A DNA stretch of 50,890 bases. Source: a virus (taxonomy: Duplodnaviria; Caudoviricetes). The translations under genes were made by a program, and so were the position numbers. Location: IMG/VR virus record IMGVR_UViG_3300009509_000071, positions 1 through 50,890 of that record; one strand, written 5' to 3'. The notes under the pieces were generated by a model. That model had not been told where the DNA came from and made no database searches. It worked only from the letters and a program-made list of their open reading frames with translations. Below, piece by piece: positions 1,743 through 28,528 of this stretch (position 1 is its first letter; each line of letters starts with the position of its first letter).

Positions 1743-2290
1743 TAATGGGTACACTAAAAGAAAAAACCATAAACAAGATAATTGAGATCGAGGGCGGATA
1801 TGTTAATGATCCGGATGATAGTGGCGGTGAAACAAAGTTTGGTATAACCAAAGCAACAGCAAGATCTTATGGGTACAGCGGAGACATGAAAGATCTTCCT
1901 AGAAGTCTAGCATTTGCGATATATGAGAATAGGTACTGGGATGCACTGATGCTTGATGAGATTGAGCATTTATCTGTAAAGATCGCTGATGAAGTGGCGG
2001 ACACTGCAGTGAACTTGGGGGTAGGTAGAGCAGCTGAGTTCCTACAGAGATCACTCAATGTGCTAAATGATCGAGAGAGATACTACAATGACTTGGTGGT
2101 TGATGGGGATGTTGGAAGAAAAACCATTGCAGCATTAAAGTCTTATTTGAGAGTAAGGGCAGTGCAAGGCGAAACTGTTTTGTACAGGATGCTAAACTCT
2201 CTTCAAGGATCTTTCTATGTTGGACTTGGTGAGCGCAGAGAAAAAGATGAGAGATTTATGTTTGGATGGTTTTTGAACAGAGTTGCATAG
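1739..2290 (+). CDS. Endolysin, glycoside hydrolase family 108 with peptidoglycan-binding domain
   Basis: EGGYVNDPDDSGGETKFGIT, DTAVNLG, VDGDVGRKT and C-terminal FMFGW..NRV motifs. Confidence 0.92.
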   Translation: MIMGTLKEKTINKIIEIEGGYVNDPDDSGGETKFGITKATARSYGYSGDMKDLPRSLAFAIYENRYWDALMLDEIEHLSVKIADEVADTAVNLGVGRAAEFLQRSLNVLNDRERYYNDLVVDGDVGRKTIAALKSYLRVRAVQGETVLYRMLNSLQGSFYVGLGERREKDERFMFGWFLNRVA

Positions 2291-2318
2291 TTTTATATGA
2301 TCCAGTATATAATGCCTT

Positions 2319-2450
2319 ATGAAAAAGGCTATTGCAACTGAGCGCATCTATAATATCTTTAGACAACTTATTGCTATCAAATATCACTATGATGATGGTA
2401 GCAGTAGGGTTATAAATCTACATTCAAACAAAGTAACACAAAAAACTTAA
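2319..2450 (+). CDS. Small hypothetical protein (43 aa), probably leaderless
   Basis: MKKAIATERIYNIFRQL...; TATAAT at 2308-2313 lies 5 nt before the ATG. Confidence 0.4.
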   Translation: MKKAIATERIYNIFRQLIAIKYHYDDGSSRVINLHSNKVTQKT

Positions 2451-2718
2451 GTGATACAATAAGTGATATATTTTTTCAACAAATATAACATTTGAAGCTA
2501 TACAGTGCCTAGATGGAATAGTGCGAAGTTCTCACTGTCCGCCAGCGATCTATCTCATACAATCTCATAAAGACTCACAAAGCCCTAAAACAAGGCACTT
2601 AAAGCAAATTAACCATCTTATTCAATGTCATATTATTGCATACAATCGCACACTTTAAGTGATACGATAAGTGATATGGTGTAAAATTATCACAAGAATA
2701 TCACTTGAAAGGTATCAC
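2447..2718. mobile_element. attP region: core CTCACTGTCCGCCA (2531-2544) flanked by integrase arm-type repeats
   Basis: The core looks like a tRNA 3' end (tRNA-Ser-like, ends CCA). TTAAGTGATAC(A/G)ATAAGTGATAT occurs at 2447-2469 and 2655-2677, with inverted TATCAC copies just before int. Confidence 0.8.
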
Positions 2719-3906
2719 ATGGCAAAAGTAAAACCACTCAATGATCGTCAAATAAAAACAGCTGCAGCGCAAGAAAAAGAGTATAAGCTTGCAGATGGAG
2801 ATGGCCTATATTTACACATAAAGCCAAATGGATCAAAGCTTTGGCGCTTTAGGTATATGCTTAACGGAAAACTTGCAATGATGTCTCTTGGTAAGTACCC
2901 AGATGTTACCATAGCTGATGCAAGAAAAAAGAGATCATCGTTAAGAGAATTGGTTGCAAGTGGAGAAAGCCCAATAGCAAAAAAGAGAGAGAGAAAAGGA
3001 ATGACTTTCTCTGATCTTGCAGATGAGTATTTTAATCATAGAGTAGATCTTAAAGATACATATATCAGAGACAACAAGGCATATCTGAAAAACCATTGGT
3101 ATCCAATCCTTGAGAATATGATACTGGATACTATTGAAGCAATACATATAATAAGATGCATAGAGAGGATAGAGAAGCATGGCGCAGTAACCATAGCAAA
3201 AAAGACTGGATCATTGATAGATAGAATTTTTAGATATGGAGTAACAAAGCAATATATGAAATATAATCCAATGAGAGATATTGACTTGTCTGTAATTGTA
3301 AAGCCTCATACTCCAAAAAATTATGCCCATATTACTGATGAAAACATACTTAAGCATCTACTTAAGGATATGGAAAATTATGTAGGTGATATAGTCACTA
3401 GGACTGCATTGCGGCTTATGCCATATGTATTTGTAAGGCCATCTGAAATAAGGGGCATGCTATGGAGTGAAATAGACTTCAAGAAAAAGATATGGTTTAT
3501 TCCAGCAGAAAGAATGAAAATGAAAAGGGATCACATAGTTCCATTAACTGAAAGTATGATCAATATAATAAATGTCATGAAAGACAATGGAAGTGACTTT
3601 GTATTTCCATCGCCACAGACAACAGTAAGGCAGCTCAGTGAAAACACTCTAAATGTAGGGCTAAAAAGACTTGGATATGAGGGCATTATGACTTCTCATG
3701 GCTTTAGGCATACAGCATCTACTTTTTTGCATGAGAATATGCATGTTCATGGAGTTCATAGCGATGCTATAGAAATTCAAATGGCGCATGTTGAAAAAAA
3801 CAATGTCAAAGGAGTGTATAATAAAGCTATATATATTGAAGAAAGAATTAGGCTTATGAAGTGGTGGAGCGATTACTTAGATGCATTAAAAGCATCCAAG
3901 CAATAA
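2719..3906 (+). CDS. int: Tyrosine integrase (P4/IntA-like with N-terminal arm-binding domain)
   Basis: DGDGLYL..KPNGSKLW arm domain; catalytic R (VRPSE), HGFRH, H (MAH) and Y (VYN). Start taken at ATG 2719. Confidence 0.96.
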   Translation: MAKVKPLNDRQIKTAAAQEKEYKLADGDGLYLHIKPNGSKLWRFRYMLNGKLAMMSLGKYPDVTIADARKKRSSLRELVASGESPIAKKRERKGMTFSDLADEYFNHRVDLKDTYIRDNKAYLKNHWYPILENMILDTIEAIHIIRCIERIEKHGAVTIAKKTGSLIDRIFRYGVTKQYMKYNPMRDIDLSVIVKPHTPKNYAHITDENILKHLLKDMENYVGDIVTRTALRLMPYVFVRPSEIRGMLWSEIDFKKKIWFIPAERMKMKRDHIVPLTESMINIINVMKDNGSDFVFPSPQTTVRQLSENTLNVGLKRLGYEGIMTSHGFRHTASTFLHENMHVHGVHSDAIEIQMAHVEKNNVKGVYNKAIYIEERIRLMKWWSDYLDALKASKQ

Positions 3907-4134
3907 TTATACCATGATGGCATCGATGTCATCCTTGTTCCATCTTGGGCATTTTTCTCCCATCTTGTACGATGGCTCAGGAAGAATACCCTCTTTTACT
4001 TTTCTCCATACAGAACTAACATCTATATCTAATCTTGTTGCTAGAGATTGTGGGCTTAGGAATTGCATAAGCTCCACATTTGTAGCAATCTTTTTCATCT
4101 CTTTTTCTGATAATTTGTTTTTATCACTCATCAC
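3907..4134 (-). CDS. AlpA-family excisionase
   Basis: HTH followed by 'WRKVKEGILPEP..MG..CPRW'; convergent with int. Confidence 0.8.
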   Translation of the reverse strand: MMSDKNKLSEKEMKKIATNVELMQFLSPQSLATRLDIDVSSVWRKVKEGILPEPSYKMGEKCPRWNKDDIDAIMV

Positions 4135-4304
4135 TATGCCTCCACAAATTTTTCTCTGAAAATTTCCTCATCGATCATCTCACACTTCTTATATGGGATA
4201 TTTAGTTTCACCATTCCTTTATTGTTTACAAAAACTTTCCCTTTTTTTGCTTCAACTCTCACTTCAAATCCATGCTTATGATGTTTGAATGTTTTTACTG
4301 CCAT
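4134..4304 (-). CDS. Hypothetical protein (56 aa)
   Basis: MAVKTFKHHKHGFEVRVEAKKG...; fills the operon gap, with an SD-like AAGG upstream. Confidence 0.55.
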   Translation of the reverse strand: MAVKTFKHHKHGFEVRVEAKKGKVFVNNKGMVKLNIPYKKCEMIDEEIFREKFVEA

Positions 4305-4305
4305 A

Positions 4306-18430: not shown

Positions 18431-18441
18431 ATTTTCCCCTT

Positions 18442-18801: not shown

Positions 18802-18931
18802 TCCTTAGATGTTTGCAGTTCTCACAAGTACGACTTTCAAGATCGTCAAATATCTTATCAACGCCATCACCGCATCCTACTAATCCATACTCATCAATTA
18901 GAAAGTCTTTTGCTTCTTCTCTATCCATCAT
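18692..18931 (-). CDS. Hypothetical protein with CxxC
   Basis: 'ESRTCENCKH...C...GCN.KFE'. Confidence 0.6.
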   Translation of the reverse strand: MMDREEAKDFLIDEYGLVGCGDGVDKIFDDLESRTCENCKHLRNGYCVPHQRKIHSIPITASQKVWISHIGCNNKFERM

Positions 18932-18933
18932 TA

Positions 18934-19907: not shown

Positions 19908-19915
19908 AGATACTC

Positions 19916-20197
19916 CTAGTCAAAGCCATTTATTTTTTTGAATTTTCTGCAGCAATTCAAACATCTCTTACTGCTTCCACAGTCACTTAGTCCATGTGCT
20001 TTTTGCACTATAACTTCATACACTGCACCCTCCAAAACAGTATCTGGATGATCTGGATTATTACCACAATATCCTCTCTCTTCTCCAGCCCTTACCCTAA
20101 GTCCACATAGCGCATTTCCGTTTCCGTCATCTATATGTATTTTTTTCATAATGCTACCTAAGCCCAGAAAATATGTGTTGATTTGATTTATCCTCAA
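19916..20197 (-). CDS. Cys-rich hypothetical protein (likely start near 20149)
   Basis: H...ALCG ... C..C motifs. Confidence 0.55.
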   Translation of the reverse strand: MRINQINTYFLGLGSIMKKIHIDDGNGNALCGLRVRAGEERGYCGNNPDHPDTVLEGAVYEVIVQKAHGLSDCGSSKRCLNCCRKFKKINGFD

Positions 20198-20450
20198 TGG
20201 TATTTAAGTCAAATACATCTGATCTCATATTGCTTGAAAACTGATCTATTGCAGCATCCAAAGTGTCAAAAGTATCTGTTATATTTTTTCTTGAAATTTC
20301 ACCATCATCTCCAAAGTACCTTACCTTATATGATATGCTATTTATACTAATCGTTATACTCTCTATGATCCCACTCATTATTGGAGTTTCACATCCGCTA
20401 TCAATGAAAAATACAATTTCACCTACATCTCTTCTTTTTTTCATAATCAA
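20154..20450 (-). CDS. Hypothetical protein
   Basis: Operon-packed ORF. Confidence 0.55.
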   Translation of the reverse strand: MIMKKRRDVGEIVFFIDSGCETPIMSGIIESITISINSISYKVRYFGDDGEISRKNITDTFDTLDAAIDQFSSNMRSDVFDLNTIEDKSNQHIFSGLR

Positions 20451-20740
20451 TCCTTTGTTATTTGTACATTCCTAAAACTCTTTAGGCCATATTTGCTGTT
20501 TTTAATGCTACTGCTATCAATATAGTTGATCAGTGTTGCTGTAGCGCTTATTTTGTCGCCTATGCTCACTTTTGACAATCTCTTTGTCATCTTAATCCAT
20601 GAGTGATCTCTAAAATACTCTCCATTCACATGAACATTTGCAAGTACGATCATCTCATTATTTGTATTTTTATTTAGTGTTATATTCTCGATCACTGCAG
20701 AAACTTCTACAGATGATCCAAGCAATTTTTCAAAATCCAT
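20447..20740 (-). CDS. Hypothetical beta-rich protein (paralogue of 15678..15950)
   Basis: Shared FRDHSWIK..KRL motif; GAGG SD. Confidence 0.7.
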   Translation of the reverse strand: MDFEKLLGSSVEVSAVIENITLNKNTNNEMIVLANVHVNGEYFRDHSWIKMTKRLSKVSIGDKISATATLINYIDSSSIKNSKYGLKSFRNVQITKD

Positions 20741-20748
20741 TCCGTCAC

Positions 20749-20958
20749 CTATGCTACATAAAGCTTTTTTCTAAGATCATATGGGATGCCATCTAATCCA
20801 TACTCAAAAGTATATCCAAGCGCTTCAACATCAATAAGCATTGCAGCGCATTGATCATAGCTTAAACTATCGCATGTATCATACTTCTCAAGTGCAGCCA
20901 TGAGATCATCTGGGATATTTTCATAATCCTCAAATAAGTCAATTTCTACATTTTCCAT
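20749..20958 (-). CDS. Small acidic protein
   Basis: 'DLFEDYENIP...GYTFEYGLDGIPYDLR'. Confidence 0.7.
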   Translation of the reverse strand: MENVEIDLFEDYENIPDDLMAALEKYDTCDSLSYDQCAAMLIDVEALGYTFEYGLDGIPYDLRKKLYVA

Positions 20959-20959
20959 C

Positions 20960-21058
20960 TTACAATCCTATTCCAAACATTACTACAAAAATTATCACTG
21001 CAAGCGCTGGCTTAAATGCCAGCAGCAGCGCTGGTATTACATATAGGTATTTCAACAT
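20960..21058 (-). CDS. Small hydrophobic peptide (32 aa)
   Basis: MLKYLYVIPALLLAFKPALAVIIFVVMFGIGL exactly fills the gap. Confidence 0.45.
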   Translation of the reverse strand: MLKYLYVIPALLLAFKPALAVIIFVVMFGIGL

Positions 21059-21059
21059 G

Positions 21060-21275
21060 CTACTCACCAAGCCTTTCTTTAAGATAATCTATTTTTTCCT
21101 GTAACTCATCTGTATCATTATCAAGTATATTCTCAAGCAGTCTCAGCATACTTTTTTCATCATCTCTGGCAATATTATCACTCCAAGCAGCTCCAAGTAA
21201 GTCTCTTAGCTGCTCCATTTTTTCTACAGTTCTGTAATCTAAATCTATATATGACATCCTGTATCCTTTATGCAA
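21060..21275 (-). CDS. Small acidic helical protein (likely start near 21257)
   Basis: AAGGA SD before MSYIDL. Confidence 0.6.
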   Translation of the reverse strand: MHKGYRMSYIDLDYRTVEKMEQLRDLLGAAWSDNIARDDEKSMLRLLENILDNDTDELQEKIDYLKERLGE

Positions 21276-22557
21276 TTTTCTTTGATTTACTGATCATCTT
21301 GCTAAGTGTATCTTTTTTCACTGCAGCATTTGCAATATGGAATTTTTCAAGTTCAGCCTTAAGCGCATCGATCTCTGCTTTCAACTCTGCTATCTCTGCA
21401 TCTTTTGATTTAATAATAGCATCCTTATTTACTCTTTTTGCCTTTGGCTTTGCCTCACTATATTCAAACGATGATCTATTTTCATTCATACTGAAACTGA
21501 TCTCATCGTATCTATGATGATCATCACCACTATGGTTAAGAATTATAGGCATAATAATCGTCTTAGCTCCATTTGATTTATTGATAAGCATTATAGGTAC
21601 ATTATTTCCATTAAAATGCATCTCAATCTTATTTTCAATGATCGCATCTGAGATATATTTTGCATTAATAGCGAATTTGAAAGGAACTTTTGCGCTATAG
21701 CTACACTCAATCGATGTTTTAGCTCCATTTTCAAGCGACTTTATCTCCATAAGCCCATCATGCATAGTGATCTCGATCTCTTCATATCCCTTTAGCGTAT
21801 CTTGCAGCTTAAGCCCATTTGCCATAACTGTAAATTTATTGCCTAAAGGAACGATCCTGTTTACATCTGGGTATCTACCATAAATAAGCCTCGATCTCTT
21901 CTGTATTCCATCTAATTTAAAATGAGCTATATGATCCTTATCAGATATTTTAAGATCAGTAAGTACGCTACCTTTTTTCAATGCATCCTTTGGAATAATA
22001 ATATCTCCAATATCAGCAGCATCGATCTTGCTTATTGCTAATCGTCTCGTATCTGTAGATGCGATCTGGCCATCTTTAAAGCTAACATAAAGCCCATTTA
22101 ATTCAAATTTAGGATTATTCTTATCTATAGTATCATATATAGCAGTATCCACTAATATCTCACCATCATAGCTAACAATATCATCACTATCAAAATCCAA
22201 GTTTACACGCTCTATATCGCTATCTTTGGCTATATAGTAATCCATAACGATACTACCATTTTCAGAAACTATCTTTACCTTTCCAGCAACATCGATATTT
22301 AGTATAAATTCAACATGATCACCTTTGGCCGCATCTATGAATTTTTTAAACTCTTTAAAGTTTACATCAAAAGAGATCGATGCAGTAGCATCAAATTCAA
22401 CCTCAGTATAAGTCTCTCCATTGCATGTGATAAGCTTAACGCCACTATCAGTTTTTTCAAAAAATAGGTATGCTGCCATCTGGCTTTGATCCTTTTTTTC
22501 AACACTTGCAGCTAATTCTTTTAACGCCTTTTTTAATTCCATTGTACCTAGTATCAT
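21268..22557 (-). CDS. DNA polymerase III beta sliding clamp-like protein with C-terminal coiled coil
   Basis: NNPKFELNGLY, ASTDTRRLA, IIIPK, YGRYPDVNRIVP, INAKYI.D and IIMPI motifs. Confidence 0.85.
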   Translation of the reverse strand: MILGTMELKKALKELAASVEKKDQSQMAAYLFFEKTDSGVKLITCNGETYTEVEFDATASISFDVNFKEFKKFIDAAKGDHVEFILNIDVAGKVKIVSENGSIVMDYYIAKDSDIERVNLDFDSDDIVSYDGEILVDTAIYDTIDKNNPKFELNGLYVSFKDGQIASTDTRRLAISKIDAADIGDIIIPKDALKKGSVLTDLKISDKDHIAHFKLDGIQKRSRLIYGRYPDVNRIVPLGNKFTVMANGLKLQDTLKGYEEIEITMHDGLMEIKSLENGAKTSIECSYSAKVPFKFAINAKYISDAIIENKIEMHFNGNNVPIMLINKSNGAKTIIMPIILNHSGDDHHRYDEISFSMNENRSSFEYSEAKPKAKRVNKDAIIKSKDAEIAELKAEIDALKAELEKFHIANAAVKKDTLSKMISKSKKIA

Positions 22558-22563
22558 TTTTTA

Positions 22564-22635
22564 TCCTTTAAATTTTATTTTTAAGTGTGATAAGCACTTA
22601 ATAAGAGACTCCATAAAGTCTCCTATAATTGCTCA
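22564..22635 (-). repeat. Structured intergenic element, copy 8 (directly after a promoter)
   Basis: GAGCAATTA-TAGGAGACT/AGTCTCTTA-T-TAAGTG..CACTTAA..AAAGGA. Confidence 0.8.
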
Positions 22636-22644
22636 TGTATGCAC

Positions 22645-22674
22645 ATTGTACACAAAATGTGAATTAAATGTCAA
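22645..22674 (-). promoter_or_regulatory. Sigma-70 promoter with operator, upstream of the clamp gene
   Basis: TTGACA-18 bp-TACAAT; the spacer contains CACAAAATGTG, as in pL. Confidence 0.75.
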
Positions 22675-22700
22675 TACCTTTTATGCAATTTGTGATCTTT

Positions 22701-22886
22701 TTAATAAATTTGCTCCATATCCTCAGTCTCATGATCCATTTTTTCATACATTTTACTCTCATCATCACTGCAAAAATCATCACGCCAATTATCCTTATCT
22801 AGTACATCAACGGATACATTTTCATCGTTACTATATACCGCCTGTACTAATCCGCCATCTATAACTATTATAATTTTGCTCATCAC
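22701..22886 (-). CDS. Small acidic protein
   Basis: 'KIIIVIDGGLVQAVYS...VDVLD.D'. Confidence 0.7.
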   Translation of the reverse strand: MMSKIIIVIDGGLVQAVYSNDENVSVDVLDKDNWRDDFCSDDESKMYEKMDHETEDMEQIY

Positions 22887-22895
22887 TTATCCTTT

Positions 22896-23045
22896 TTATC
22901 TTAAGCAATTATGCTCATTTACTAGCTGCACTATGCTCCTAGCAGCGCCTATGATCTTATCTGTATTAACTAATCTCAATTCCCACTTATCTGTATCGTT
23001 ATTGAATTTTAGATATACATCATCCCTATATACTGTATCCATCAT
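22896..23045 (-). CDS. Hypothetical protein (49 aa)
   Basis: MMDTVYRDDVYLKFNN...; follows the SD of an element copy. Confidence 0.6.
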   Translation of the reverse strand: MMDTVYRDDVYLKFNNDTDKWELRLVNTDKIIGAARSIVQLVNEHNCLR

Positions 23046-23048
23046 TTA

Positions 23049-23121
23049 TCCTTTATTGTAAATTTAAGTGAAAAATCACTTAATAAAGCCCACTATGTAA
23101 AAATAGGCTTTATAAATGATT
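23049..23121 (-). repeat. Structured intergenic element, copy 7
   Basis: AATCATTTA-TAAAGCCTA/TGGGCTTTA-T-TAAGTGATT..TCACTTAA..AAAGGA. Confidence 0.85.
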
Positions 23122-23620
23122 ACATGCTCTCCAGTGAATAATCTCCCAGCTGGCCATCTGTACCTATTTCATAGTGAATATAGTTATAGTCTCCCAGTAA
23201 GCTTTTTTTGTCATCATCTTTGATTACATGCACGCCTACATATGCATAGCATGATGGCCTAAAATCGATCCTTATCTCAGCTACTACAGTGATATTTAAG
23301 AGATCACCTATTAAGCCCATATCAGCCCCATTACAGATAAATGATCCAGTATATATGCCGCCATCCTCATGTGGATTATAAATATAATCTGTACTGAGAT
23401 CACATTTTAATTCACTCTCTATACTCTCTTTTATGTTATTTACATAATCCTCTAATACTTTAAAATCATCTAAATATAATTTTTCAGCTATCTCATCAAT
23501 CATGAGATTATAAAAAGTCTCTATATCCATCTCACTATCATTATTTACGATCTTTACAAAATTATCATAACTAATGATCCCAGCCTCTACATTTTCTTTT
23601 AATTTTTCATAATTAATCAT
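23120..23620 (-). CDS. Acidic hypothetical protein
   Basis: D/E-rich, 166 aa. Confidence 0.75.
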   Translation of the reverse strand: MINYEKLKENVEAGIISYDNFVKIVNNDSEMDIETFYNLMIDEIAEKLYLDDFKVLEDYVNNIKESIESELKCDLSTDYIYNPHEDGGIYTGSFICNGADMGLIGDLLNITVVAEIRIDFRPSCYAYVGVHVIKDDDKKSLLGDYNYIHYEIGTDGQLGDYSLESM

Positions 23621-23626
23621 CTTTGA

Positions 23627-23702
23627 TCCTTTAATTTTTAATTTTAAGTATTTGATAAATACTCAATAATGGCCTCACTAAAGGCCACTATGAATATTTT
23701 TA
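23627..23702 (-). repeat. Structured intergenic element, copy 6
   Basis: AAATATTCA-TAGTGGCC/GGCCATTA-T-TGAGTATTT..AAATACTTAA..AAAGGA. Confidence 0.9.
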
Positions 23703-23948
23703 ATCCTGATTATCCCAGCAGCTAAAACATCTCTTTGAGATAATTGATCCATCCTCATCCTCATAATTTTCCTTATAATCCTCATACCACTCATCTATAT
23801 CTCTAAACTCCCAGCTATTAACAAAATCTAATATATCCTCTTTAGTAAGATCACCTCTATTTTTACTAATAAAATCAGATACATCCTCATTAAAGCACCA
23901 CTTAAGATCAGTCTTATAATCCTCTTTAATCTCATTTGTATAATCCAT
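23700..23948 (-). CDS. Very acidic small protein
   Basis: 'DIDEWYEDYKENYEDEDG'. Confidence 0.75.
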   Translation of the reverse strand: MDYTNEIKEDYKTDLKWCFNEDVSDFISKNRGDLTKEDILDFVNSWEFRDIDEWYEDYKENYEDEDGSIISKRCFSCWDNQD

Positions 23949-23949
23949 C

Positions 23950-24147
23950 TTAATTTCCTTTATTCACTAAATTGTTATATATCTCTAATCCATTTTCACT
24001 AAGCGTATCTACATCTAAAAAAGGGCTGGGCTTAAAATATTTTAATATCCCAGATAATCTCATATATTCTATACTACTTTGGCCACTATGATAATCTCTA
24101 AAATAAAGATAATATGCCTCTACAATATCCCATCTATCAAAATACAT
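23950..24147 (-). CDS. Hypothetical protein
   Basis: 'MYFDRWDIVEAYYLY..DYH.GQ.S..Y.RLS'. Confidence 0.75.
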   Translation of the reverse strand: MYFDRWDIVEAYYLYFRDYHSGQSSIEYMRLSGILKYFKPSPFLDVDTLSENGLEIYNNLVNKGN

Positions 24148-24148
24148 C

Positions 24149-24535
24149 TTATACCGCCTCTATGATCTTATTTTCTGGTAAAGTACGCCCATTACGCTTA
24201 TGATTAATCAAGCGCCCTATATGAATAATATCCGCTGCATAATCTGTATTGATCCCATAATGATCAGAAAATTTTTCTACAGTAAGAAAATTATTAAAAT
24301 AATCCAGATAATAATCCTCAGTATTACAGGCTATTATGTTATTTAGTACGCTTAATACCTTTATATCATCAAAATGATCCAGTATAGTCTCTATGGCCTC
24401 TACTATCGAATATTTTTTGTTATACTCAAGCACATAAGATAAGCTACTGATCAGATATTGATCATCAAATGATACATGATCCCCAGTGTAGCTATATTCT
24501 ATCCCACTATATTTTTTTGTTATATATTGCAGCAT
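24149..24535 (-). CDS. Hypothetical protein
   Basis: C-terminal 'YLDYFNNFLTVEKFSDHYGI....A..II..GR..H'. Confidence 0.75.
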   Translation of the reverse strand: MLQYITKKYSGIEYSYTGDHVSFDDQYLISSLSYVLEYNKKYSIVEAIETILDHFDDIKVLSVLNNIIACNTEDYYLDYFNNFLTVEKFSDHYGINTDYAADIIHIGRLINHKRNGRTLPENKIIEAV

Positions 24536-24540
24536 TTAAG

Positions 24541-24617
24541 CCCCTTTAATTTTTAAATTTGAATATTTGAAAAATACTCAAAAATGGGATCATAAAATCC
24601 CACTATGAATATTTTTA
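24541..24617 (-). repeat. Structured intergenic element, copy 5
   Basis: AAAATATTCA-TAGTGGGAT/ATCCCATTT-T-TGAGTATTTT..AAATATTCAA..AAAGGGG. Confidence 0.9.
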
Positions 24618-24884
24618 GATCATTTTTACGATAATTTTTCTATACTCATCCCCAGTCATACTCTTATTTATGATCCCTTTAATACTCTCTATTTGATCCC
24701 TTATTTGATCCAGTAACTTATACATATTATTTATATCTTTAGAAACGATATATCTAATCCCACTATGACTTTTTTCATGATCTTTTTTTTCACTCTCTAT
24801 AGCTGCATTAATAATTTTTCTTTTATGCATCTCTTCATCCACTAAATAACAATATGATCCTACTAATGATAATTTATCCATCAT
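24615..24884 (-). CDS. Hypothetical protein
   Basis: ORF whose stop lies in an element copy. Confidence 0.65.
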   Translation of the reverse strand: MMDKLSLVGSYCYLVDEEMHKRKIINAAIESEKKDHEKSHSGIRYIVSKDINNMYKLLDQIRDQIESIKGIINKSMTGDEYRKIIVKMI

Positions 24885-25051
24885 AAGCCCCTAAACTGCA
24901 AATTTGCATATTTATTTGTAAAGTATGCTATAGAGTGACTATGCCAAGCTATAGCCTTATTTTTATCATTTGTAACCACTGGATCATGTAAAGATGCATT
25001 ACTGCAAAAAACATATTGCCAAGCCCCATTTATAAACACTTGCATTTTCAT
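24881..25051 (-). CDS. Hypothetical protein (56 aa)
   Basis: MKMQVFINGAWQYVFC...; ATGA overlaps on both sides. Confidence 0.6.
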   Translation of the reverse strand: MKMQVFINGAWQYVFCSNASLHDPVVTNDKNKAIAWHSHSIAYFTNKYANLQFRGL

Positions 25052-25569
25052 AATAAGCCCCTTATTTGATCCACAAATAACCTACTATCTTTAAATGCAT
25101 TTACTCCTATATAATTTTCACTAACACTATCTATAAAGCTATACCAAAATTTATTTTCTACTATCGATACACTACAGATAACATCCTCTTTATTTATAGC
25201 CGCTGGGATCATTTTGTCTATTATTAGATAAATATTGCCTCTATATTTTAAGGCCTCTATAGATAGATCGTTACCATTAAAATTAAGATCACATTTGATC
25301 ATCTCTTTTTTACTCATGTTTTTAATTTTTTCAGTAGCTACAATATCTTTTAAAACTACAATAAAGCTATAAAAAACATTATCATCTTTATCTATCTCAT
25401 AGTCACTATTAAAGGCCTCTTTATTATCTTTATATTGACTATAAAGCCCCTCTATATAATCAATATAATTAATCTCATTTTTAAACAAATGAGTCTCTAT
25501 ATAATAACCATCCTCTATGATCTTATAAGCCCTTTTTTTACGATCCACTAATAAGCTATAATCTATCAT
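25048..25569 (-). CDS. Hypothetical protein
   Basis: 173-aa ORF following an element SD. Confidence 0.7.
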   Translation of the reverse strand: MIDYSLLVDRKKRAYKIIEDGYYIETHLFKNEINYIDYIEGLYSQYKDNKEAFNSDYEIDKDDNVFYSFIVVLKDIVATEKIKNMSKKEMIKCDLNFNGNDLSIEALKYRGNIYLIIDKMIPAAINKEDVICSVSIVENKFWYSFIDSVSENYIGVNAFKDSRLFVDQIRGLL

Positions 25570-25576
25570 TTTTAAT

Positions 25577-25649
25577 ACCTTTATGTTTAAATTTAAGCAT
25601 TTAATAAATACTTAATAATGGGCTTAATAAAGCCCACTATAAATATTTA
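25577..25649 (-). repeat. Structured intergenic element, copy 4
   Basis: TAAATATTTA-TAGTGGGCTT/AAGCCCATTA-T-TAAGTATTTA..AAATGCTTAA..AAAGGT. Confidence 0.9.
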
Positions 25650-25955
25650 TAGATAAATAATCTCATTTTGAAAAAAAGAGATAAATTCTATTTTTTCTTT
25701 ACGATCTGATCCATCCATATTGCAATAAAGATCAAGTGTAATTAATGCATTATTTTTATATACTTGCCAAGCATAAGCCCCTGTAATATAATTTTTTAGA
25801 TGATTAGATAAATATTTTTTAAGATCATAAATTGACTTTTTTATCTTATATTCATCTGAGATATTATTATTTAAAAATTCATAGATAATTACATCTTTAA
25901 ACATAAGCTTATTATCTTTAATTTTTAAGCCTTTATATATAGTCTGATCACTCAT
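25647..25955 (-). CDS. Hypothetical protein
   Basis: ORF lying between two element copies. Confidence 0.65.
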   Translation of the reverse strand: MSDQTIYKGLKIKDNKLMFKDVIIYEFLNNNISDEYKIKKSIYDLKKYLSNHLKNYITGAYAWQVYKNNALITLDLYCNMDGSDRKEKIEFISFFQNEIIYL

Positions 25956-25961
25956 TATGCA

Positions 25962-26035
25962 GCCTTTATTTTTAAATTTAAGTAACTAAAATTACTTAAT
26001 AAAGTGATCCTGATCGATCACTCTATAAATAATTA
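25962..26035 (-). repeat. Structured intergenic element, copy 3
   Basis: AATTATTTA-TAGAGTGATC/GATCACTTTA-T-TAAGTAATT..GTTACTTAA..AAAGG. Confidence 0.9.
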
Positions 26036-26212
26036 ATTTAATATGCTATGCTTTACAATATGATTATTATTAATAATCTCTATTTTAAGATCGTTTCTAT
26101 CTTTATTAATCATTTTTATATAGCCCTTTTTTAAATAGTCATTTAATAAGGCCGCCTTTACATGATCTAATATAACCTTATTTTTAAGGCCTTTAATACT
26201 TAATAAAGTCAT
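26033..26212 (-). CDS. Small basic protein (59 aa)
   Basis: MTLLSIKGLKNKVILDHVKAALLNDYLKKGYI...; AAGGGG SD; stop lies in an element. Confidence 0.55.
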   Translation of the reverse strand: MTLLSIKGLKNKVILDHVKAALLNDYLKKGYIKMINKDRNDLKIEIINNNHIVKHSILN

Positions 26213-26295
26213 TTTGATCCCCTTTTAAGATCGTTTATATCCTTGCAAGTAATGCAGCCCTTTTTTATGTAGTAATTTAATTGTATTAAAGTCAT
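26209..26295 (-). CDS. Peptide (28 aa)
   Basis: MTLIQLNYYIKKGCITCKDINDLKRGSK follows an element SD; ATGA overlap with the next ORF. Confidence 0.45.
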   Translation of the reverse strand: MTLIQLNYYIKKGCITCKDINDLKRGSK

Positions 26296-26300
26296 TTTGA

Positions 26301-26375
26301 TCCCTTTAAATTTTTAATTTAAGTATTTATTTAATACTTAATAAGAGGCTGCAGCCCAGCCCCATATAAATATTA
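26301..26375 (-). repeat. Structured intergenic element, copy 2
   Basis: TAATATTTA-TATGGGGCTG/CAGCCTCTTA-T-TAAGTATTA..AATACTTAA..AAAGGGA. Confidence 0.9.
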
Positions 26376-26567
26376 ATATTCACTAATCAAATTAAGATCA
26401 GTGATCCCCTCTTCATCATAATAATCCCAGCCTATAGAATATACATTTCCAGTAATGCTATATAATTTTTCACCATCTGGAGATATTGCATAATCATGTT
26501 TAGTCACTGCATAAACGATCCCATACGCTGCAGCATCTTTTTTGATCTGATCTTTTATTGCATCCAT
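26373..26567 (-). CDS. Small acidic protein
   Basis: 64 aa; stop lies in an element. Confidence 0.65.
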   Translation of the reverse strand: MDAIKDQIKKDAAAYGIVYAVTKHDYAISPDGEKLYSITGNVYSIGWDYYDEEGITDLNLISEY

Positions 26568-26569
26568 AC

Positions 26570-26686
26570 TTAAGCCCCTGTATTAATAAGAGTAATTATA
26601 AATGCAGCCGCTGCAGCTATAGAGATAATAAGCCCCATATTAAGAGGCGCTTTATTTTCTTTAGATAGATTAGAATAAGTGATCAT
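26570..26686 (-). CDS. Small membrane peptide (38 aa)
   Basis: MITYSNLSKENKAPLNMGLIISIAAAAAFIITLINTGA follows an element SD. Confidence 0.5.
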   Translation of the reverse strand: MITYSNLSKENKAPLNMGLIISIAAAAAFIITLINTGA

Positions 26687-26690
26687 TTGA

Positions 26691-26769
26691 TCCCCTTTAA
26701 TTTTAAATTTAAGTCACTGTAAATAAGCGCTTAATAAAGGGCTACAATATAGCCCTCTATAAATGCTTA
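26691..26769 (-). repeat. Structured intergenic element, copy 1
   Basis: TAAGCATTTA-TAGAGGGCTA/TAGCCCTTTA-T-TAAGCGCTTA..GTGACTTAA..AAAGGGG. Confidence 0.88.
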
Positions 26770-27066
26770 AAATGCCTGTATAATAAAGGCCTCTTTATTT
26801 ACTGGTATTAAGATCGTATTATTTTCTATATCCTCTAAAGTCTCATACTCTTCACCATACTCAGACTGAAACGCCTCTAAATTATCATACTCAGTAAAGT
26901 CACAACATAGCGCTATAACATCTAACTCCATTTGTGTATCTGATCCCTCTTCATACTCTTCGATCCAAGCAAATAAAGCCTTTAATCCCTCATAAGAAAA
27001 TTGATCCCCACGCCCCATATTATTAAATGCCTGTATAAAGTCATACTCATTAACTGTATTTATCAT
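26767..27066 (-). CDS. Highly acidic protein, first gene of the leftward array (DNA-mimic/anti-restriction candidate)
   Basis: 'FSYEGLKALF..IEEYEE....ELDVIALCCDFTEY'; roughly a quarter of residues are D/E. Confidence 0.8.
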   Translation of the reverse strand: MINTVNEYDFIQAFNNMGRGDQFSYEGLKALFAWIEEYEEGSDTQMELDVIALCCDFTEYDNLEAFQSEYGEEYETLEDIENNTILIPVNKEAFIIQAF

Positions 27067-27124
27067 TTGTTACCCTTTAAATGTTTAATTTGATCAAGTG
27101 ATCATCATCTCTTAATCTATATAT

Positions 27125-27172
27125 ATTATAGTACAATTTGTGTATAAAGTCAATAGTTTATATACAATTTGT
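27125..27172 (-). promoter_or_regulatory. Strong sigma-70 promoter with two operator copies driving the leftward array
   Basis: TTGACT-17 bp-TATAAT; TACAATTTGTGTATAAA occurs twice (~27132 and ~27163). Confidence 0.85.
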
Positions 27173-27219
27173 GTATAAAATATGATCTTTTTTTTACAAT
27201 ATGCAAGTATAAAAAATAT

Positions 27220-27340
27220 CTCATGATCATCTGATCCCATCCCATCCCATCCCAGCCGCTGCAGCATCATCCCAGCATCTGAGAGGATCACGCCCAGCCC
27301 ATCCAAGCCGCTGCAGCATCCAAGCATATGCAGCCCACTG
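27220..27340. repeat. C-rich short-repeat tract beside cos
   Basis: Tandem (ATCCC)n, AGCCGCTGCAGCATC twice and CATCCAAGC twice. Confidence 0.7.
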
Positions 27341-27348
27341 GATTAAAA

Positions 27349-27396
27349 AGGTACTGTCCAGCGTTTTTCAAGGCCACAGGGATCAGCGTAGCCCCG
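27349..27396 (+). other. Candidate cos site (cosQ-like plus cosN-like)
   Basis: AGGTACT starts 30 nt before GGGATCAGCGTA, the same spacing as lambda GGGTCCT to GGGCGGCGACCT; upstream of terS and gpA. Confidence 0.6.
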
Positions 27397-27588
27397 ATTT
27401 CTTTGTCTCGTTCATGTTTTTTTGCGGTTATCCACACCGATATAGAAATTCGCCCATATATATACTATATATGCGATCCATAATTATCTTGATATTTGGC
27501 ATATTTATCATGAACTTTAGTACACCATGTTATAACTAGTTGTAAAATACAAAAAATAAGGAACTATAGTTCACTTTTTCATAAAATA

Positions 27589-27597
27589 TGCTATAAT
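27589..27597 (+). promoter_or_regulatory. Extended -10 promoter, leaderless
   Basis: TGcTATAAT lies 6 nt before ATG 27604. Confidence 0.6.
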
Positions 27598-27603
27598 CAC
27601 CGC

Positions 27604-27819
27604 ATGAAATCCACAAAAAGTCTTACAACTACAAAGATTATTGCAAAAAGCTTTGGTAGTACACCCAGAAACATTCATAAGACATACAAGGCAAAAAAGC
27701 CAAACTCATTTCGTGTTCTGGAAGTGGGATCTTACATGATGGAACATAATGTCACAAATGAAGAGATCGAGGCGGCAGTAGATTTTATACTCAAGATGAG
27801 GGAGATATATGGCAAGTAA
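27604..27819 (+). CDS. Small basic putative DNA-binding protein
   Basis: 'KIIAKSFGSTPRNIHK' is HTH-like. Confidence 0.6.
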   Translation: MKSTKSLTTTKIIAKSFGSTPRNIHKTYKAKKPNSFRVLEVGSYMMEHNVTNEEIEAAVDFILKMREIYGK

Positions 27820-28528
27820 GATACACCAACTGGAAAGCGCACATCCGGACAAAAAGATCGTGGCTCATGAACTTTATGAGATCGATGGTGAGATTTTAGG
27901 CGGAAAGAAGTTTGTCTCAAGTGATATGAGCGTATCAGAGAGGCATATTACTGAGTGGGAAAAGAAAGGCTTTAAGGCATCACCACTATCATTGCCGAGA
28001 CTAAAGCTATACAACATAAAAGATCTCAGGAAGTGGCATAAAGATAATGTTGATCAGAAACAATCCAAGAGAAGAAACAGTGACATAATCGATGGCACAG
28101 AAGAGAAAGATGAGCATAACAAGTATGCGCACTTGCCTATCGATGAAGTTCCTCAAGTTGAAGCAATGCGAAGAAAGGAAATTGCTGCACTTAAAAAGCT
28201 ACTACTGCAGAATGATGAACTTGAGGGTAGATTAGTTCCGGCAGACGATCTGGATAGAGCAATGGCAGAACAAGCAGCTATGCACATATCAGACAAAATG
28301 AACGATGAGAAAACTCTTCCAACACTACTTGAGAACAAATCAGCAGAAGAGATCAGTGAACTTCTATATGAGCATAATCAGGAAAAAGTGAACATGCTCA
28401 AGAGGATAGTTCAGAAAGAGTTTGTGTGCGACAATACTCTCTATGACATCATATTTGAGATCTTGCTGAAACTGGAAGAGGATGTAAACCCAGATAAGAT
28501 CGTGGAGGCAATTCGTGGTCTTTCGTAA
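27809..28528 (+). CDS. Terminase small subunit (Nu1-like)
   Basis: MerR-like HTH 'VSERHITEWEKKG...LYNIKDLRKW' and 'ELEGRLVP'; precedes terL. Confidence 0.75.
   Translation: MASKIHQLESAHPDKKIVAHELYEIDGEILGGKKFVSSDMSVSERHITEWEKKGFKASPLSLPRLKLYNIKDLRKWHKDNVDQKQSKRRNSDIIDGTEEKDEHNKYAHLPIDEVPQVEAMRRKEIAALKKLLLQNDELEGRLVPADDLDRAMAEQAAMHISDKMNDEKTLPTLLENKSAEEISELLYEHNQEKVNMLKRIVQKEFVCDNTLYDIIFEILLKLEEDVNPDKIVEAIRGLS

What the first reader, a model, noticed from the sequence alone, without database searches (positions are those of the whole stretch)
1815..27844. CCGG appears absent from the whole early half but is common in the structural half
Seen (manual scan, may miss sites): no CCGG between 1815 and 27844, against roughly 35 sites from 27845 through the junction to 1814. 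One boundary falls near cos and the other near attP. Inference: either position-dependent restriction-site avoidance, with DNA entering before anti-restriction genes act being purged of sites, or a chimera of two halves adapted to hosts with different RM sets.
Basis: partly seen in the sequence, partly recalled or inferred. Interest (0 to 1): 0.7.

Follow-up and report, generated by a model that had tools for sequence, protein, structure and literature searches.

The report
CCGG missing from one phage arm
In this uncultured temperate phage, already stripped of dozens of restriction-enzyme sites, the site CCGG is missing only from the early-gene arm and is frequent in the packaging and tail genes, most likely because the two arms have different ancestries.

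Summary
There are 35 CCGG sites, none in 1815-27844, a 26,034-bp gap. GC content, strand and codon usage do not explain it. At dipeptides that can encode CCGG, the early arm uses it 0 of 115 times and the late arm 34 of 184 times (Fisher 2e-8).

Two points change the picture. First, the whole genome lacks ACGT, CGCG, CCNGG, GGNCC, GAWTC and 32 of 64 palindromic hexamers in both arms. CCGG is the only word of 4-6 bases that is absent from one arm and has at least 10 copies in the other. Second, the late arm is not uniform. Usage is 13 of 28 in terS/terL/portal, 9 of 33 in the tape measure and 1 of 29 in the lysis cassette.

My best reading (0.45) is a mosaic. The arms, or modules within them, come from related phages that faced the same restriction enzymes except a CCGG cutter. 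Relatives range from 0 of 40 to 27 of 28 observed over expected sites.

The main rival (0.2) is entry-order selection as in T5. The early arm encodes a T5 A1 homologue. However, every other purged site is purged equally in both arms.

An assembly chimera is not excluded (0.1).

The parts
1815..27844 (.). CCGG-free tract (early or right arm): attP region, integrase, recombination genes, repressor switch, replication genes, A1-like gene, and a leftward block of small ORFs next to cos
   Evidence: 0 CCGG. 0 of 115 CCGG-capable dipeptides use it. By block: 0/34, 0/41, 0/16 and 0/20.
27845..50890 (+). CCGG-bearing tract, main part (late or left arm): terS through tail fibres, holin and accessory genes, all on the + strand
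   Evidence: 34 sites from 27845 to 48723. Of all 35 sites, 21 sit as NCC|GGN, 13 as CCG|GNN and 1 as NNC|CGG.
1..1814 (+). End of the late operon across the window junction. It carries the last, isolated CCGG at 1811, inside the endolysin gene.
   Evidence: Bases 1-139 repeat 50752-50890.
27809..28528 (+). Small terminase subunit. The first CCGG lies 36 nt into it.
   Evidence: phrog_57, E 5.9e-7. CCGG used at 2 of 3 opportunities.
28515..30527 (+). Large terminase subunit, GpA (lambda) type
   Evidence: phrog_15, E 2e-60. PF05876 and PF20454 precomputed for it and its relatives. CCGG used at 5 of 12 opportunities.
31280..32755 (+). Portal protein
   Evidence: phrog_21, E 1e-30. CCGG used at 6 of 13 opportunities.
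39044..43720 (+). Tape measure protein
   Evidence: phrog_7740 and others. CCGG used at 9 of 33 opportunities.
48812..49336 (+). Holin. This is the start of the CCGG-poor lysis and accessory block (1 of 29 opportunities) and the best-fitting single step boundary.
   Evidence: PF05105 and phrog_13191. Block counts; step fit.
1739..2290 (+). Endolysin (GH108 plus PG_binding_3), the last gene of the late operon
2291..2670 (.). Candidate attP region upstream of the integrase gene, with a 23-nt direct repeat at 2447-2469 and 2655-2677
   Evidence: Repeat found, sequence read. The attP assignment is inferred from position only.
2671..3906 (+). Tyrosine integrase
   Evidence: phrog_1, E 2.7e-64.
10777..11376 (-). 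CI-like repressor (HTH plus Peptidase_S24)
   Evidence: PF00717, E 4.5e-7.
16618..18171 (+). Homologue of phage T5 pre-early protein A1 (predicted metallophosphatase), the last gene of the rightward early operon
   Evidence: phrog_1745, E 8e-105. 30% identity over 473 aa to T5 A1, E 2e-53, with GDxH, NH and GHxH stretches aligned.
18188..27437 (-). Leftward block of mostly unknown small ORFs next to cos, including a phage sliding-clamp gene (21268-22557). GC falls to 0.27-0.31.
27230..27600 (.). Candidate cos region: a G+C-rich stretch with 28-nt repeats at 27241-27268 and 27293-27320
   Evidence: In the three relatives terS lies about 0.4-0.6 kb from a contig end. The cos assignment is inferred.

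Best explanation
The genome is a natural mosaic. It belongs to a lineage of lambda-type cos phages, probably of Campylobacterota in marine sediment, that are under very heavy restriction pressure and have purged many short recognition words.

The early arm (integrase to cos, probably with the lysis cassette) descends from a lineage that also met a CCGG-cutting enzyme of the HpaII/MspI kind. That lineage removed every CCGG by synonymous codon choice. The packaging genes, the tape measure gene and some tail genes descend from relatives that never met that enzyme. Those relatives avoid only the narrower words RCCGGY and CCSGG.

In a cos phage, one crossover is enough to swap whole arms, because packaging cuts at cos. 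Alternatively, cos-to-cos packaging from tandem prophages, or Int-mediated attP x attP exchange, would do the same. This would place one boundary at cos and the other near the late-operon end.

Shown: the site pattern, its independence of GC, strand and codon usage, the shared purge of the other motifs, and the varying CCGG status of relatives.

Inferred: the recombination itself, its mechanism, the host and the responsible enzyme.
For: (1) At the same dipeptides the arms choose differently: 0 of 115 against 34 of 184. Ala-Gly is GCT in 18 of 18 cases in the early arm. In the late arm it is GCT 23, GCC 11 and GCA 2. Pro before a codon starting with G is never CCG in the early arm (0 of 40) but is CCG 13 of 42 times in the late arm. 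In other contexts CCG is equally common in both arms (8 of 120 against 11 of 144).

(2) The rightward early operon lies on the same strand as the late genes and still scores 0 of 41. Strand is therefore not the cause.

(3) Gene GC3 explains little: logL -99.8 against -83.3 for position.

(4) CCGG status varies among the three relatives fetched whole. G002 has 0 against 40 expected, G001 has 27 against 28, and G003 has 34 against 46. G001 itself has a CCGG trough, 1 of 61 opportunities at 15-25 kb against 25 of 154 elsewhere, P = 0.002. Lineages with and without the purge, and patchy genomes, therefore exist.

(5) Several palindromes differ between the arms in the opposite direction. GGCC has codon-aware z = +5.4 in the early arm and +1.6 in the late arm. 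GATC, GCGC and GGCC all rise toward the early arm.

(6) The late arm is heterogeneous gene by gene: terS 2/3, terL 5/12, portal 6/13, tape measure 9/33, but 0/12 and 0/13 in two tail or accessory genes. This is what module-wise mosaicism predicts.

(7) Within the late arm RCCGGY is nearly absent among CCGG sites, 1 of 35 against 5.7 expected, P = 6e-4. CCSGG is absent. That arm was therefore selected against related words but not against CCGG itself.

(8) The state cannot be an old equilibrium under one uniform regime. In the early arm 106 single synonymous changes would create a CCGG and none has occurred. All 35 late-arm sites could be removed by one synonymous change each.
Against: No relative close enough to show incongruent ancestry of the two arms could be read as DNA. 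The nearest proteins are known only as proteins from short or unreachable contigs: TerL at 76-78% identity and the A1-like protein at 66-77%.

Only 14 of 87 ORFs have any hit in G001-G003.

Apart from CCGG the two arms look alike. The 4-mer z-scores correlate at r = 0.845, and the purge of more than 25 other motifs is identical. The two parents must therefore have shared nearly the same restriction environment.

A smooth decline of CCGG use with distance from cos fits better than a single step. LogL is -83.3 for the gradient, -88.1 for a step at att and -85.5 for the best free step. Extrapolating the late-arm gradient predicts only 2.4 sites in the early arm, P(0) = 0.09.

CCGG in the late arm is 2.7 times above the codon-aware expectation, 35 against 13. 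It is also above the rate in unpurged relatives, 34/184 against 56/492, P = 0.02. Simple lack of selection does not explain this excess.
Confidence: 0.45

Rival explanations
1. Entry-order (T5-like or T7-like) selection. The right (early) arm of this cos phage enters the cell first and is exposed to a CCGG-cutting enzyme. Early products, possibly including the A1-like protein, then disable that enzyme or its supply before the left arm arrives. Sites are therefore tolerated increasingly toward the last-entering end.
For: The empty arm is the one expected to enter first in a lambda-type phage. The terminase is GpA type. The polarity itself, last packaged is first injected, is recalled lambda knowledge.

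The early arm encodes a full-length homologue of T5 A1 with metallophosphatase-like stretches aligned. In T5, A1 is required for second-step transfer and is necessary and sufficient for host DNA degradation (bioRxiv 10.64898/2026.04.02.716235, abstract and discussion read).

In T5-like phages, R-M systems act only if sites lie in the first-transferred DNA (PMC10644984, passages read). In T7-like phages the leading region decides sensitivity (PMC12455610, abstract read).

CCGG use declines with distance from the left end. The gradient within the late arm has LR 12.9, and the whole-genome logistic fit beats the step models.

Next to cos lies a 9-kb block of small unknown ORFs read inward from the right end.
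Against: Any general protection of late-entering DNA is contradicted. ACGT (0 of about 86 expected in the late-arm blocks), CGCG, CCNGG, GGNCC and the other purged words are as absent there as in the early arm. Residual sites of other nearly purged words are not concentrated in the late arm. The protection would have to be specific to one enzyme.

No A2 homologue was found; the best tblastn E-value is 2.1. No long repeat-rich non-coding 'injection stop' region was found near 48-3 kb.

The three relatives show no consistent relaxation toward the left end for their own partly purged palindromes. None of them has an A1 homologue.

A1 homologues occur in 1,132 phage records of many kinds. The gene alone therefore does not imply two-step entry.

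The excess of CCGG over neutral expectation in the packaging genes is not predicted.
Confidence: 0.2
2. Assembly chimera. The contig is a metagenomic assembly, and the two arms belong to two related phages of the same sample that the assembler joined at shared sequence.
For: The record comes from a metagenome. One run holds 99% of the sampled words and may be its source.

Among the 8 pieces listed for that run (45 contigs laid, 105 further table rows not shown), none bridges 27807-28109, which is exactly where CCGG begins.

Diverged relatives of the late genes, about 80% identical and at depth about 7, are in the same run.

Against: The contig closes on itself with a 139-bp terminal repeat and is rated 100% complete. 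It carries exactly one set of phage functions, and its size matches relatives of 44-53 kb.

The depth difference between arms follows GC content, r = 0.99 over 5 contigs. It therefore does not indicate two populations.

Contig breaks are frequent throughout the late arm, not only at the boundary.

A second sample of the same study holds short pieces identical to both arms at similar low depth: 23874-24078, 31513-31695 and 33862-34077.

Both arms share the same unusual purge list.
Confidence: 0.1
3. The active feature is an excess of CCGG in the packaging and tape-measure genes, with some function or context bias of its own. The early arm is simply at the low end of a codon-context gradient.
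For: By the most conservative nulls the early-arm deficit is modest: 0 against 3.3-5.6, P 0.001-0.02. The late-arm excess is large: 35 against 13, with none of 1000 simulations reaching 35.

Codons ending in A or G before GG are disfavoured everywhere. AGGA and CAGG have z from -6 to -10, and GCGGG is absent. This pushes choices to T or C.

Extrapolating the late-arm gradient leaves only 2.4 sites expected in the early arm.
Against: The same context rules hold in the early arm, yet C is never chosen there: 0 of 115, and 0 of 41 in a block of similar GC to a late block that scores 5 of 46, P = 0.009.

The sites are not at conserved positions. Only 1 of 12 terL and portal sites coincides with a CCGG in G001.

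No longer shared motif is evident around the sites.

Compared with unpurged relatives (56 of 492), the early arm should have about 13 sites, P(0) = 9e-7.
Confidence: 0.1

Closest known systems
Restriction-site (short palindrome) avoidance in dsDNA phages (survey: Rusinov et al. 2018, PMC6286503; abstract read)
   Same: Known recognition words are removed, largely by synonymous codon choice. Elimination is complete or nearly complete for several Type II-like palindromes. The same behaviour is seen in three relatives, each with its own list of purged words.
   Different: Here one word is purged from only about half of the genome while all the others are purged throughout. The phage looks temperate (integrase, CI-like repressor), and the survey reports much weaker avoidance in that class. 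The purge is deep enough to remove the Pro-Gly and Gly-Pro dipeptides from the predicted proteome.
Site-free first-step-transfer DNA of T5-like phages, and the leading region of T7-like phages (PMC10644984, passages; PMC12455610, abstract)
   Same: In both cases only part of the genome must be free of sites. Here the site-free part is the end expected to enter first, and a homologue of the T5 A1 gene is present in it.
   Different: In T5 the site-free part is 8% of the genome. It carries A1 and A2 next to an injection stop signal, and the rest is insensitive to many R-M types. Here the tract is 51% of a lambda-like temperate genome. No A2 or stop signal was found. The remainder is still purged of every other word.
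Arm exchange and modular mosaicism of lambdoid phages (recalled textbook knowledge: single crossovers between cos phages, Int-promoted attP x attP recombination, packaging from tandem prophages)
   Same: One boundary lies at cos and one near the end of the late operon and att. There are module-scale differences in a sequence signature, and relatives carry alternative states.
   Different: The recombination is inferred from one motif only. No parental or sister genomes are available. Apart from CCGG the arms are compositionally alike (r = 0.845).
   Same: The same word shows the same all-or-none contrast, achieved by synonymous codon choice.
   Different: In that case two separate phage genomes lay side by side on one contig. 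Here the contrast is inside one complete phage genome with a single set of functions. I did not test that note.

Membership tests
Restriction-site avoidance | The word is under-represented against composition-aware and codon-aware nulls | tested here: met
   Early arm: 0 observed against 23.5, 9.3 and 4.7 expected, and against 5.6 and 3.3 by codon-aware nulls. 0 of 115 opportunities.
Restriction-site avoidance | Removal is by synonymous choice, leaving the proteins intact | tested here: met
   Ala-Gly, Thr-Gly, Ser-Gly and Pro-G.. dipeptides are present (115 of them) but never written with CCGG.
Restriction-site avoidance | The word is the recognition site of a restriction enzyme present in the host | not testable with these tools
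   That CCGG is the HpaII/MspI site is recalled knowledge. The host is unknown. The nearest TerL relatives in bacterial genomes are Campylobacterota MAGs at 33-40% identity, and only 3 of 401 genomes of that order match.
Restriction-site avoidance | No self-methylation that would make avoidance unnecessary | tested here: met
   A six-frame search of the genome finds no PF00145, PF01555 or PF02086. No methyltransferase appeared among the ORFs scanned.
T5-type two-step transfer with site-free first-step DNA | A1 homologue encoded in the site-free, first-entering DNA | tested here: met
   16618-18171: 30% identity over 473 aa to T5 A1, E 2e-53. phrog_1745, E 8e-105.
T5-type two-step transfer with site-free first-step DNA | A2 DNA-binding partner | tested here: not met
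   tblastn of T5 A2 against the genome gives a best E-value of 2.1. A very diverged A2 could be missed.
T5-type two-step transfer with site-free first-step DNA | Repeat-rich non-coding injection stop signal at the border | tested here: not met
   Only short repeats of two or three copies in 48000-3000. The largest gap there is the 380-bp att region.
T5-type two-step transfer with site-free first-step DNA | Later-entering DNA is relieved from site avoidance in general | tested here: not met
   ACGT, CGCG, CCNGG and GGNCC score 0 in each of the five late-arm blocks. More than 25 words are absent from both arms.
T5-type two-step transfer with site-free first-step DNA | Stepwise or polar entry shown physically | not testable with these tools
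   This needs infection experiments.
Recombinant (mosaic) phage genome | A discontinuity of a sequence signature at module borders | tested here: met
   CCGG is the top outlier of 136 4-mer classes between the arms, z difference -8.9 against 5.6 for the next. It is the only word of 2,068 tested that is zero in one arm and at least 10 in the other. The borders lie at terS and near the holin.
Recombinant (mosaic) phage genome | Different phylogenetic affinities of the segments | not testable with these tools
   Only 14 of 87 ORFs hit G001-G003, and at 24-64% identity. Closer relatives are known as proteins only.
Recombinant (mosaic) phage genome | Physical continuity of the segments on one molecule (not an assembly artefact) | tested here: inconclusive
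   Depth follows GC and a second sample holds pieces of both arms, but no listed contig bridges 27807-28109.
Lambda-type temperate cos siphophage | GpA-type large terminase, integrase, CI-like repressor with S24 domain, divergent early operons, late operon from terS to lysis genes | tested here: met
   The cos ends themselves are inferred.

The most novel reading that the evidence does not exclude
A temperate, lambda-like cos phage may use polar or two-step DNA entry in which about half of the genome goes in first. That half would be the early arm, carrying a T5 A1-type protein. Selection against one host enzyme's site (CCGG) would then fade along the genome toward the last-entering end. This would extend the T5/T7 'leading DNA must be site-free' rule to a new virus type and scale, and would link A1 homologues outside Demerecviridae to staged entry.
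Probability: 0.17. Interest if true: 0.8.

Novelty: new variant of a known kind. Interest (0 to 1): 0.6.

Why it matters
Restriction-site avoidance is usually scored per genome. Here one genome carries both states of one word, on a background of an exceptionally deep purge.

If the mosaic reading holds, maps of purged words can date and delimit recombination in uncultured phages that have no sequenced relatives. They can also show which restriction enzymes each module has met.

If the entry-order reading holds, it would be the first sign of staged genome delivery in a lambda-like temperate phage. It would also give a testable role for the widespread homologues of T5 A1, whose way of sparing phage DNA is still open according to the 2026 preprint (discussion section read).

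Either way the genome is a good natural test case. It has 35 sites that could each be removed, and 106 positions where a site could be created, by single silent changes.

Tried and rejected
- **Close relatives as DNA.** Megablast of both halves against the phage collection found no match. Single-protein scans of IMG/VR with TerL and two early-arm proteins found no relative. A single-protein scan of genomes found none. Profile scans gave only distant relatives, at most 49% TerL identity. 3 of 401 genomes of the order of the best MAG have a TerL match, none of them close.
- **GC content as the cause.** Rejected.
- **Strand as the cause.** Rejected: the rightward early operon scores 0 of 41.
- **Amino-acid composition as the cause.** Rejected by counting dipeptide opportunities.
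- **General rarity of NCC or CCG codons.** Rejected: their usage is equal in the two arms outside CCGG contexts.
- **Conserved functional CCGG positions.** Rejected: 1 of 12 shared with G001.
- **A phage methyltransferase.** Not found.
- **Known defence or anti-defence families.** PADLOC gave no hit for any of the 10 ORFs scanned.
- **tRNA at attP.** None found.
- **Promoters around cos.** 4 promoter-like sites against 5.1 expected, so nothing to build on.
- **Injection-stop-like repeats.** Not seen.
- **T5 A2 and four other T5 first-step ORFs.** No match.
- **Sequencing runs.** In X1 no listed contig bridges 27807-28109, and table 8 was cut (105 rows not shown). X3 holds next to nothing.
- **Earlier notes on this genome.** None exist. 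A look-up by the A1-like sequence also found none.
- **A script flaw.** My scripts from then on joined the window end to its start without removing the 139-bp terminal repeat found. This distorts about 25 codons at the start of one ORF (50636/50817 to 1213). It created a false GAWTC in the circular counts. It does not touch any CCGG count.

Full report
**What the window is.**

The window is the whole record. It is a 50,890-base virus contig whose ends repeat each other over 139 bp, so the true circle is 50,751 bp. It is rated complete.

The late genes all lie on the + strand from 27809, across the junction, to 2290. In order they are terS, a GpA-type terL, portal, protease, head and tail genes, a 1,558-aa tape measure, tail fibres, a holin and a GH108 endolysin.

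Then follow:
- a tyrosine integrase (2671-3906);
- a leftward operon with dUTPase, a DUF3799 exonuclease, RecT and a CI-like S24 repressor;
- a rightward operon with an IstB/DnaC-like loader, SSB, a PDDEXK resolvase and a 517-aa protein;
- a leftward block of small unknown ORFs, plus a sliding clamp, that ends next to terS.

This is a lambda-like temperate layout. The positions of cos (about 27.2-27.6 kb) and attP (2291-2670) are inferred from gene order, from repeats, and from the fact that in three relatives terS lies 0.4-0.6 kb from a contig end.

The nearest phage records have TerL identity of at most 32%. The nearest TerL genes in bacterial genomes are in Campylobacterota MAGs at 33-40%. 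One marine-sediment run holds the sequence.

**The observation.**

It is exact. There are 35 CCGG sites: one at 1811, 34 between 27845 and 48723, and none in 1815-27844. A gap of 26,034 bp among 35 uniformly placed points has P about 9e-10.

Base composition predicts 23.5 sites in the empty tract. A first-order model predicts 9.3 and a second-order model 4.7. The rest of the genome holds 35 against 33.7, 8.7 and 15.5 expected.

Keeping every protein and redrawing synonymous codons from the arm's own usage gives 5.6 expected in the early arm; 1 of 1000 simulations is as low as zero. Permuting synonymous codons inside each gene gives 3.3 expected, with 22 of 1000 as low. The late arm has 35 against 13 under both nulls, and none of 1000 simulations reaches 35.

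Part of the contrast is therefore an excess in the late arm.

**Where the difference sits.**

Of the 35 sites, 21 are NCC|GGN, 13 are CCG|GNN and 1 is NNC|CGG.

The dipeptides that can be written that way are Ala-, Thr- and Ser-Gly, and Pro before Gly, Ala, Val, Asp or Glu. The early arm writes CCGG at 0 of 115 of these and the late arm at 34 of 184 (Fisher 2.2e-8).

Ala-Gly is GCT in 18 of 18 early-arm cases. In the late arm it is GCT 23, GCC 11 and GCA 2. Pro before a G-starting codon is CCG in 0 of 40 early-arm cases and in 13 of 42 late-arm cases. Elsewhere CCG is equally frequent in the two arms, 8 of 120 against 11 of 144.

Strand is not the cause. The rightward early operon shares the late genes' strand and scores 0 of 41.

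Gene GC3 is a weak predictor, logL -99.8 against -83.3 for position.

Two relatives that do not purge CCGG use it at 56 of 492 such opportunities. At that rate the early arm should hold about 13 sites, P(0) = 9e-7.

**The background.**

The genome is purged of many recognition words in both arms. Expected counts below are from base composition.

| Word | Observed | Expected |
|---|---|---|
| ACGT | 0 | about 170 |
| CGCG | 0 | 58 |
| CCNGG | 0 | 58 |
| GGNCC | 0 | 58 |
| GAACC | 0 | 63 |
| GGGAC | 0 | 37 |
| ACGGC | 0 | 37 |
| CCCGC | 0 | 21 |
| CCTTC | 1 | 64 |
| CGWCG | 1 | 37 |
| GACGC | 1 | 37 |

GAWTC also has no site in the linear window.

Hexamers absent with about 17-20 expected each include GAATTC, GATATC, GTATAC, GTTAAC, AGTACT, CAATTG, TCTAGA, TTCGAA, GAAGAC, CTGAAG and GAATGC.

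32 of 64 palindromic hexamers are absent, where about 1 is expected. The three relatives fetched whole lack 29, 33 and 32 of 64.

The purge reaches the proteins. The 87 predicted ORFs (15,719 residues) contain no Pro-Gly and no Gly-Pro, with 21.6 expected of each. Those dipeptides cannot be written without CCNGG or GGNCC.

No DNA methyltransferase of three Pfam families is encoded.

Each of the nine blocks of the genome has zero ACGT, CGCG, CCNGG and GGNCC. Codon-aware z-scores of all 136 strand-symmetric 4-mer classes correlate at r = 0.845 between the arms. CCGG is the largest outlier, with a difference of -8.9 against 5.6 for the next. Among 2,068 words of 4-6 bases, only CCGG and words containing it are absent from one arm while having at least 10 copies in the other.

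**Structure inside the late arm.**

CCGG use per opportunity, by block:

| Block | Used / opportunities |
|---|---|
| terS to protease | 14 / 35 |
| Head and tail | 5 / 36 |
| Tape measure | 9 / 33 |
| Distal tail | 5 / 46 |
| Holin to endolysin | 1 / 29 |

By gene: terS 2/3, terL 5/12, portal 6/13, and two genes at 0/12 and 0/13.

Model fits:

| Model | logL |
|---|---|
| Logistic decline with distance from cos | -83.3 |
| Best free single step (near 48.95 kb, at the holin) | -85.5 |
| Single step at att | -88.1 |

The gradient within the late arm is significant (LR 12.9). Extrapolated into the early arm it predicts only 2.4 sites, P(0) = 0.09.

Among the 35 sites RCCGGY occurs once, against 5.7 expected (P = 6e-4). 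CCCGG and CCGGG never occur. The late arm thus avoids related words.

The sites are not at conserved positions. Only 1 of 12 in terL and portal coincides with a CCGG in G001.

**Relatives.**

G001 (TerL 50%) has 27 CCGG against 28 expected, but no ACGT and no GGCC. G002 (43%) has no CCGG, GGCC or ACGT. G003 (32%) has 34 against 46 expected, and almost no GGCC or GCGC.

G001 has its own CCGG trough, 1 of 61 opportunities at 15-25 kb against 25 of 154 elsewhere, P = 0.002.

None of the three shows a consistent relaxation of its partly purged palindromes toward the terS end.

In G000 itself GATC, GGCC, GCGC, TATA and TTAA rise toward the early arm. CCGG is the only palindrome that falls.

Only 14 of 87 ORFs have any match in these relatives, so arm-wise trees cannot be built. 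Closer relatives exist only as proteins: TerL at 76-78% and the 517-aa protein at 66-77% identity.

**The T5 lead.**

The 517-aa protein (16618-18171) matches phrog_1745 at E 8e-105. It is 30% identical over 473 residues to T5 A1, E 2e-53, with the GDxH, NH and GHxH stretches aligned.

In T5, A1 and A2 are needed for second-step transfer, and A1 is necessary and sufficient for host DNA degradation (bioRxiv 10.64898/2026.04.02.716235; abstract and discussion read). T5-like phages are restricted only if sites lie in the first-transferred DNA (PMC10644984, passages read). A similar rule holds for the leading region of T7-like phages (PMC12455610, abstract read).

By recalled lambda knowledge, the last-packaged right end enters first. 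That is the CCGG-free arm here.

Against a T5-like mechanism:
- no A2 homologue was found;
- no stop-signal-like region was found;
- A1 homologues occur in 1,132 phage records of many kinds;
- above all, the late arm is not relieved of any other purge.

**Assembly.**

In the probable source run, independent contigs cover both arms. Their depths (8.4 to 18.3) follow GC with r = 0.99 over five contigs. This assumes that the 15-kb contig continues colinearly to the left of the stretch laid.

None of the listed pieces bridges 27807-28109, but breaks are frequent across the late arm, where a diverged relative is present. A second sample holds short identical pieces of both arms.

A chimera is therefore unlikely but not excluded.

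**Verdict.**

The pattern is real and specific to CCGG. GC, strand, amino-acid composition and general codon usage do not explain it.

It cannot be an old equilibrium under one uniform selective regime. In the early arm 106 silent single changes would create a site and none has happened. Each of the 35 late-arm sites could be removed by one silent change.

Either the arms have different histories, or they experience different selection.

I favour different histories (0.45), for four reasons:
- relatives differ in exactly this trait;
- the late arm is patchy gene by gene;
- several other palindromes differ between the arms in the opposite direction;
- all other purges are shared.

Entry-order selection specific to one enzyme remains possible (0.2). 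It is the more interesting reading.

The excess of CCGG in the packaging and tape-measure genes is not explained by either reading.

Noticed in passing
whole window: Extreme genome-wide purge of recognition words. ACGT, CGCG, CCNGG, GGNCC, GAWTC, GAACC, GGGAC, ACGGC and CCCGC are absent. CCTTC, CGWCG and GACGC are left with one copy each. 32 of 64 palindromic hexamers are absent (about 1 expected) and 239 of 2,080 hexamer classes are absent (about 2 expected). This is unusual for a phage with an integrase and a repressor.
   Followed up: partly
all 87 predicted ORFs of the window: The predicted proteome has no Pro-Gly and no Gly-Pro dipeptide, with 21.6 expected of each. They are the only dipeptides with an expectation of at least 8 that are absent. 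Both would force CCNGG or GGNCC. G001 lacks PG and has one GP. G002 lacks GP.
   Followed up: yes
window 16618-18171 (+): A full-length homologue of the T5 pre-early protein A1 in a lambda-like temperate genome, without a detectable A2. Seven relatives at 66-77% identity exist on other metagenomic contigs. A 2026 preprint describes A1 as mainly a Demerecviridae protein, yet 1,132 phage records match it.
   Followed up: partly
window 21800-27600: The AT-rich segment next to cos has a word usage of its own. GAAC/GTTC occurs 5 times against 29 expected, with a 5.6-kb gap (21849-27410). Gaps for CAAC, CTTC, GAGC and ACAAG lie in the same place. GATC occurs 76 times against 14 expected and GGCC 14 against 2.3.
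   Followed up: no
whole window, peak at 20-29 kb: GATC is strongly over-represented: 361 against 171 expected, codon-aware z of +7 to +10. Density reaches 10-18 per kb around cos and falls to 0-5 per kb in the tail-fibre genes at 43-48 kb. GGATCC is nevertheless absent.
   Followed up: partly
whole window: Some palindromes are several-fold over-represented: CTGCAG 39 against 5.8, GCWGC 167 against 37, ATCGAT 65 against 17, TGATCA 48 against 17. This may be a side effect of the many forbidden neighbouring words.
   Followed up: no
the 35 CCGG sites, 27845-48723 and 1811: Among the CCGG sites, RCCGGY occurs once (ACCGGT at 38502) against 5.7 expected, and no site is CCCGG or CCGGG. 25 of the 35 are CCGGA.
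   Followed up: yes
window 21268-22557 (-): A phage-encoded DNA polymerase III beta sliding clamp (429 aa), with a C-terminal extension beyond the clamp domains.
   Followed up: no
G003 (L065-L067): The 19 residual ACGT sites of this relative (163 expected) are clustered: five in 516-3587 (terS/terL) and five in 16960-18236. This looks like imported patches.
   Followed up: no
window 27241-27320 and 27132-27179: A 28-nt G+C-rich direct repeat (93% identical) and an exact 17-nt direct repeat lie just upstream of terS. They are candidate terminase-binding or cos elements.
   Followed up: no
window 1-139 and 50752-50890: The ends of the window are identical over 139 bp. This is an assembly overlap of a circular or concatemeric template, so the unique genome is 50,751 bp.
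   Followed up: yes
window 28500-37500, run X1: The probable source sample also holds contigs of a diverged relative of the packaging and head genes, about 80% identical at depth about 7. Potential recombination partners therefore co-occur.
   Followed up: no
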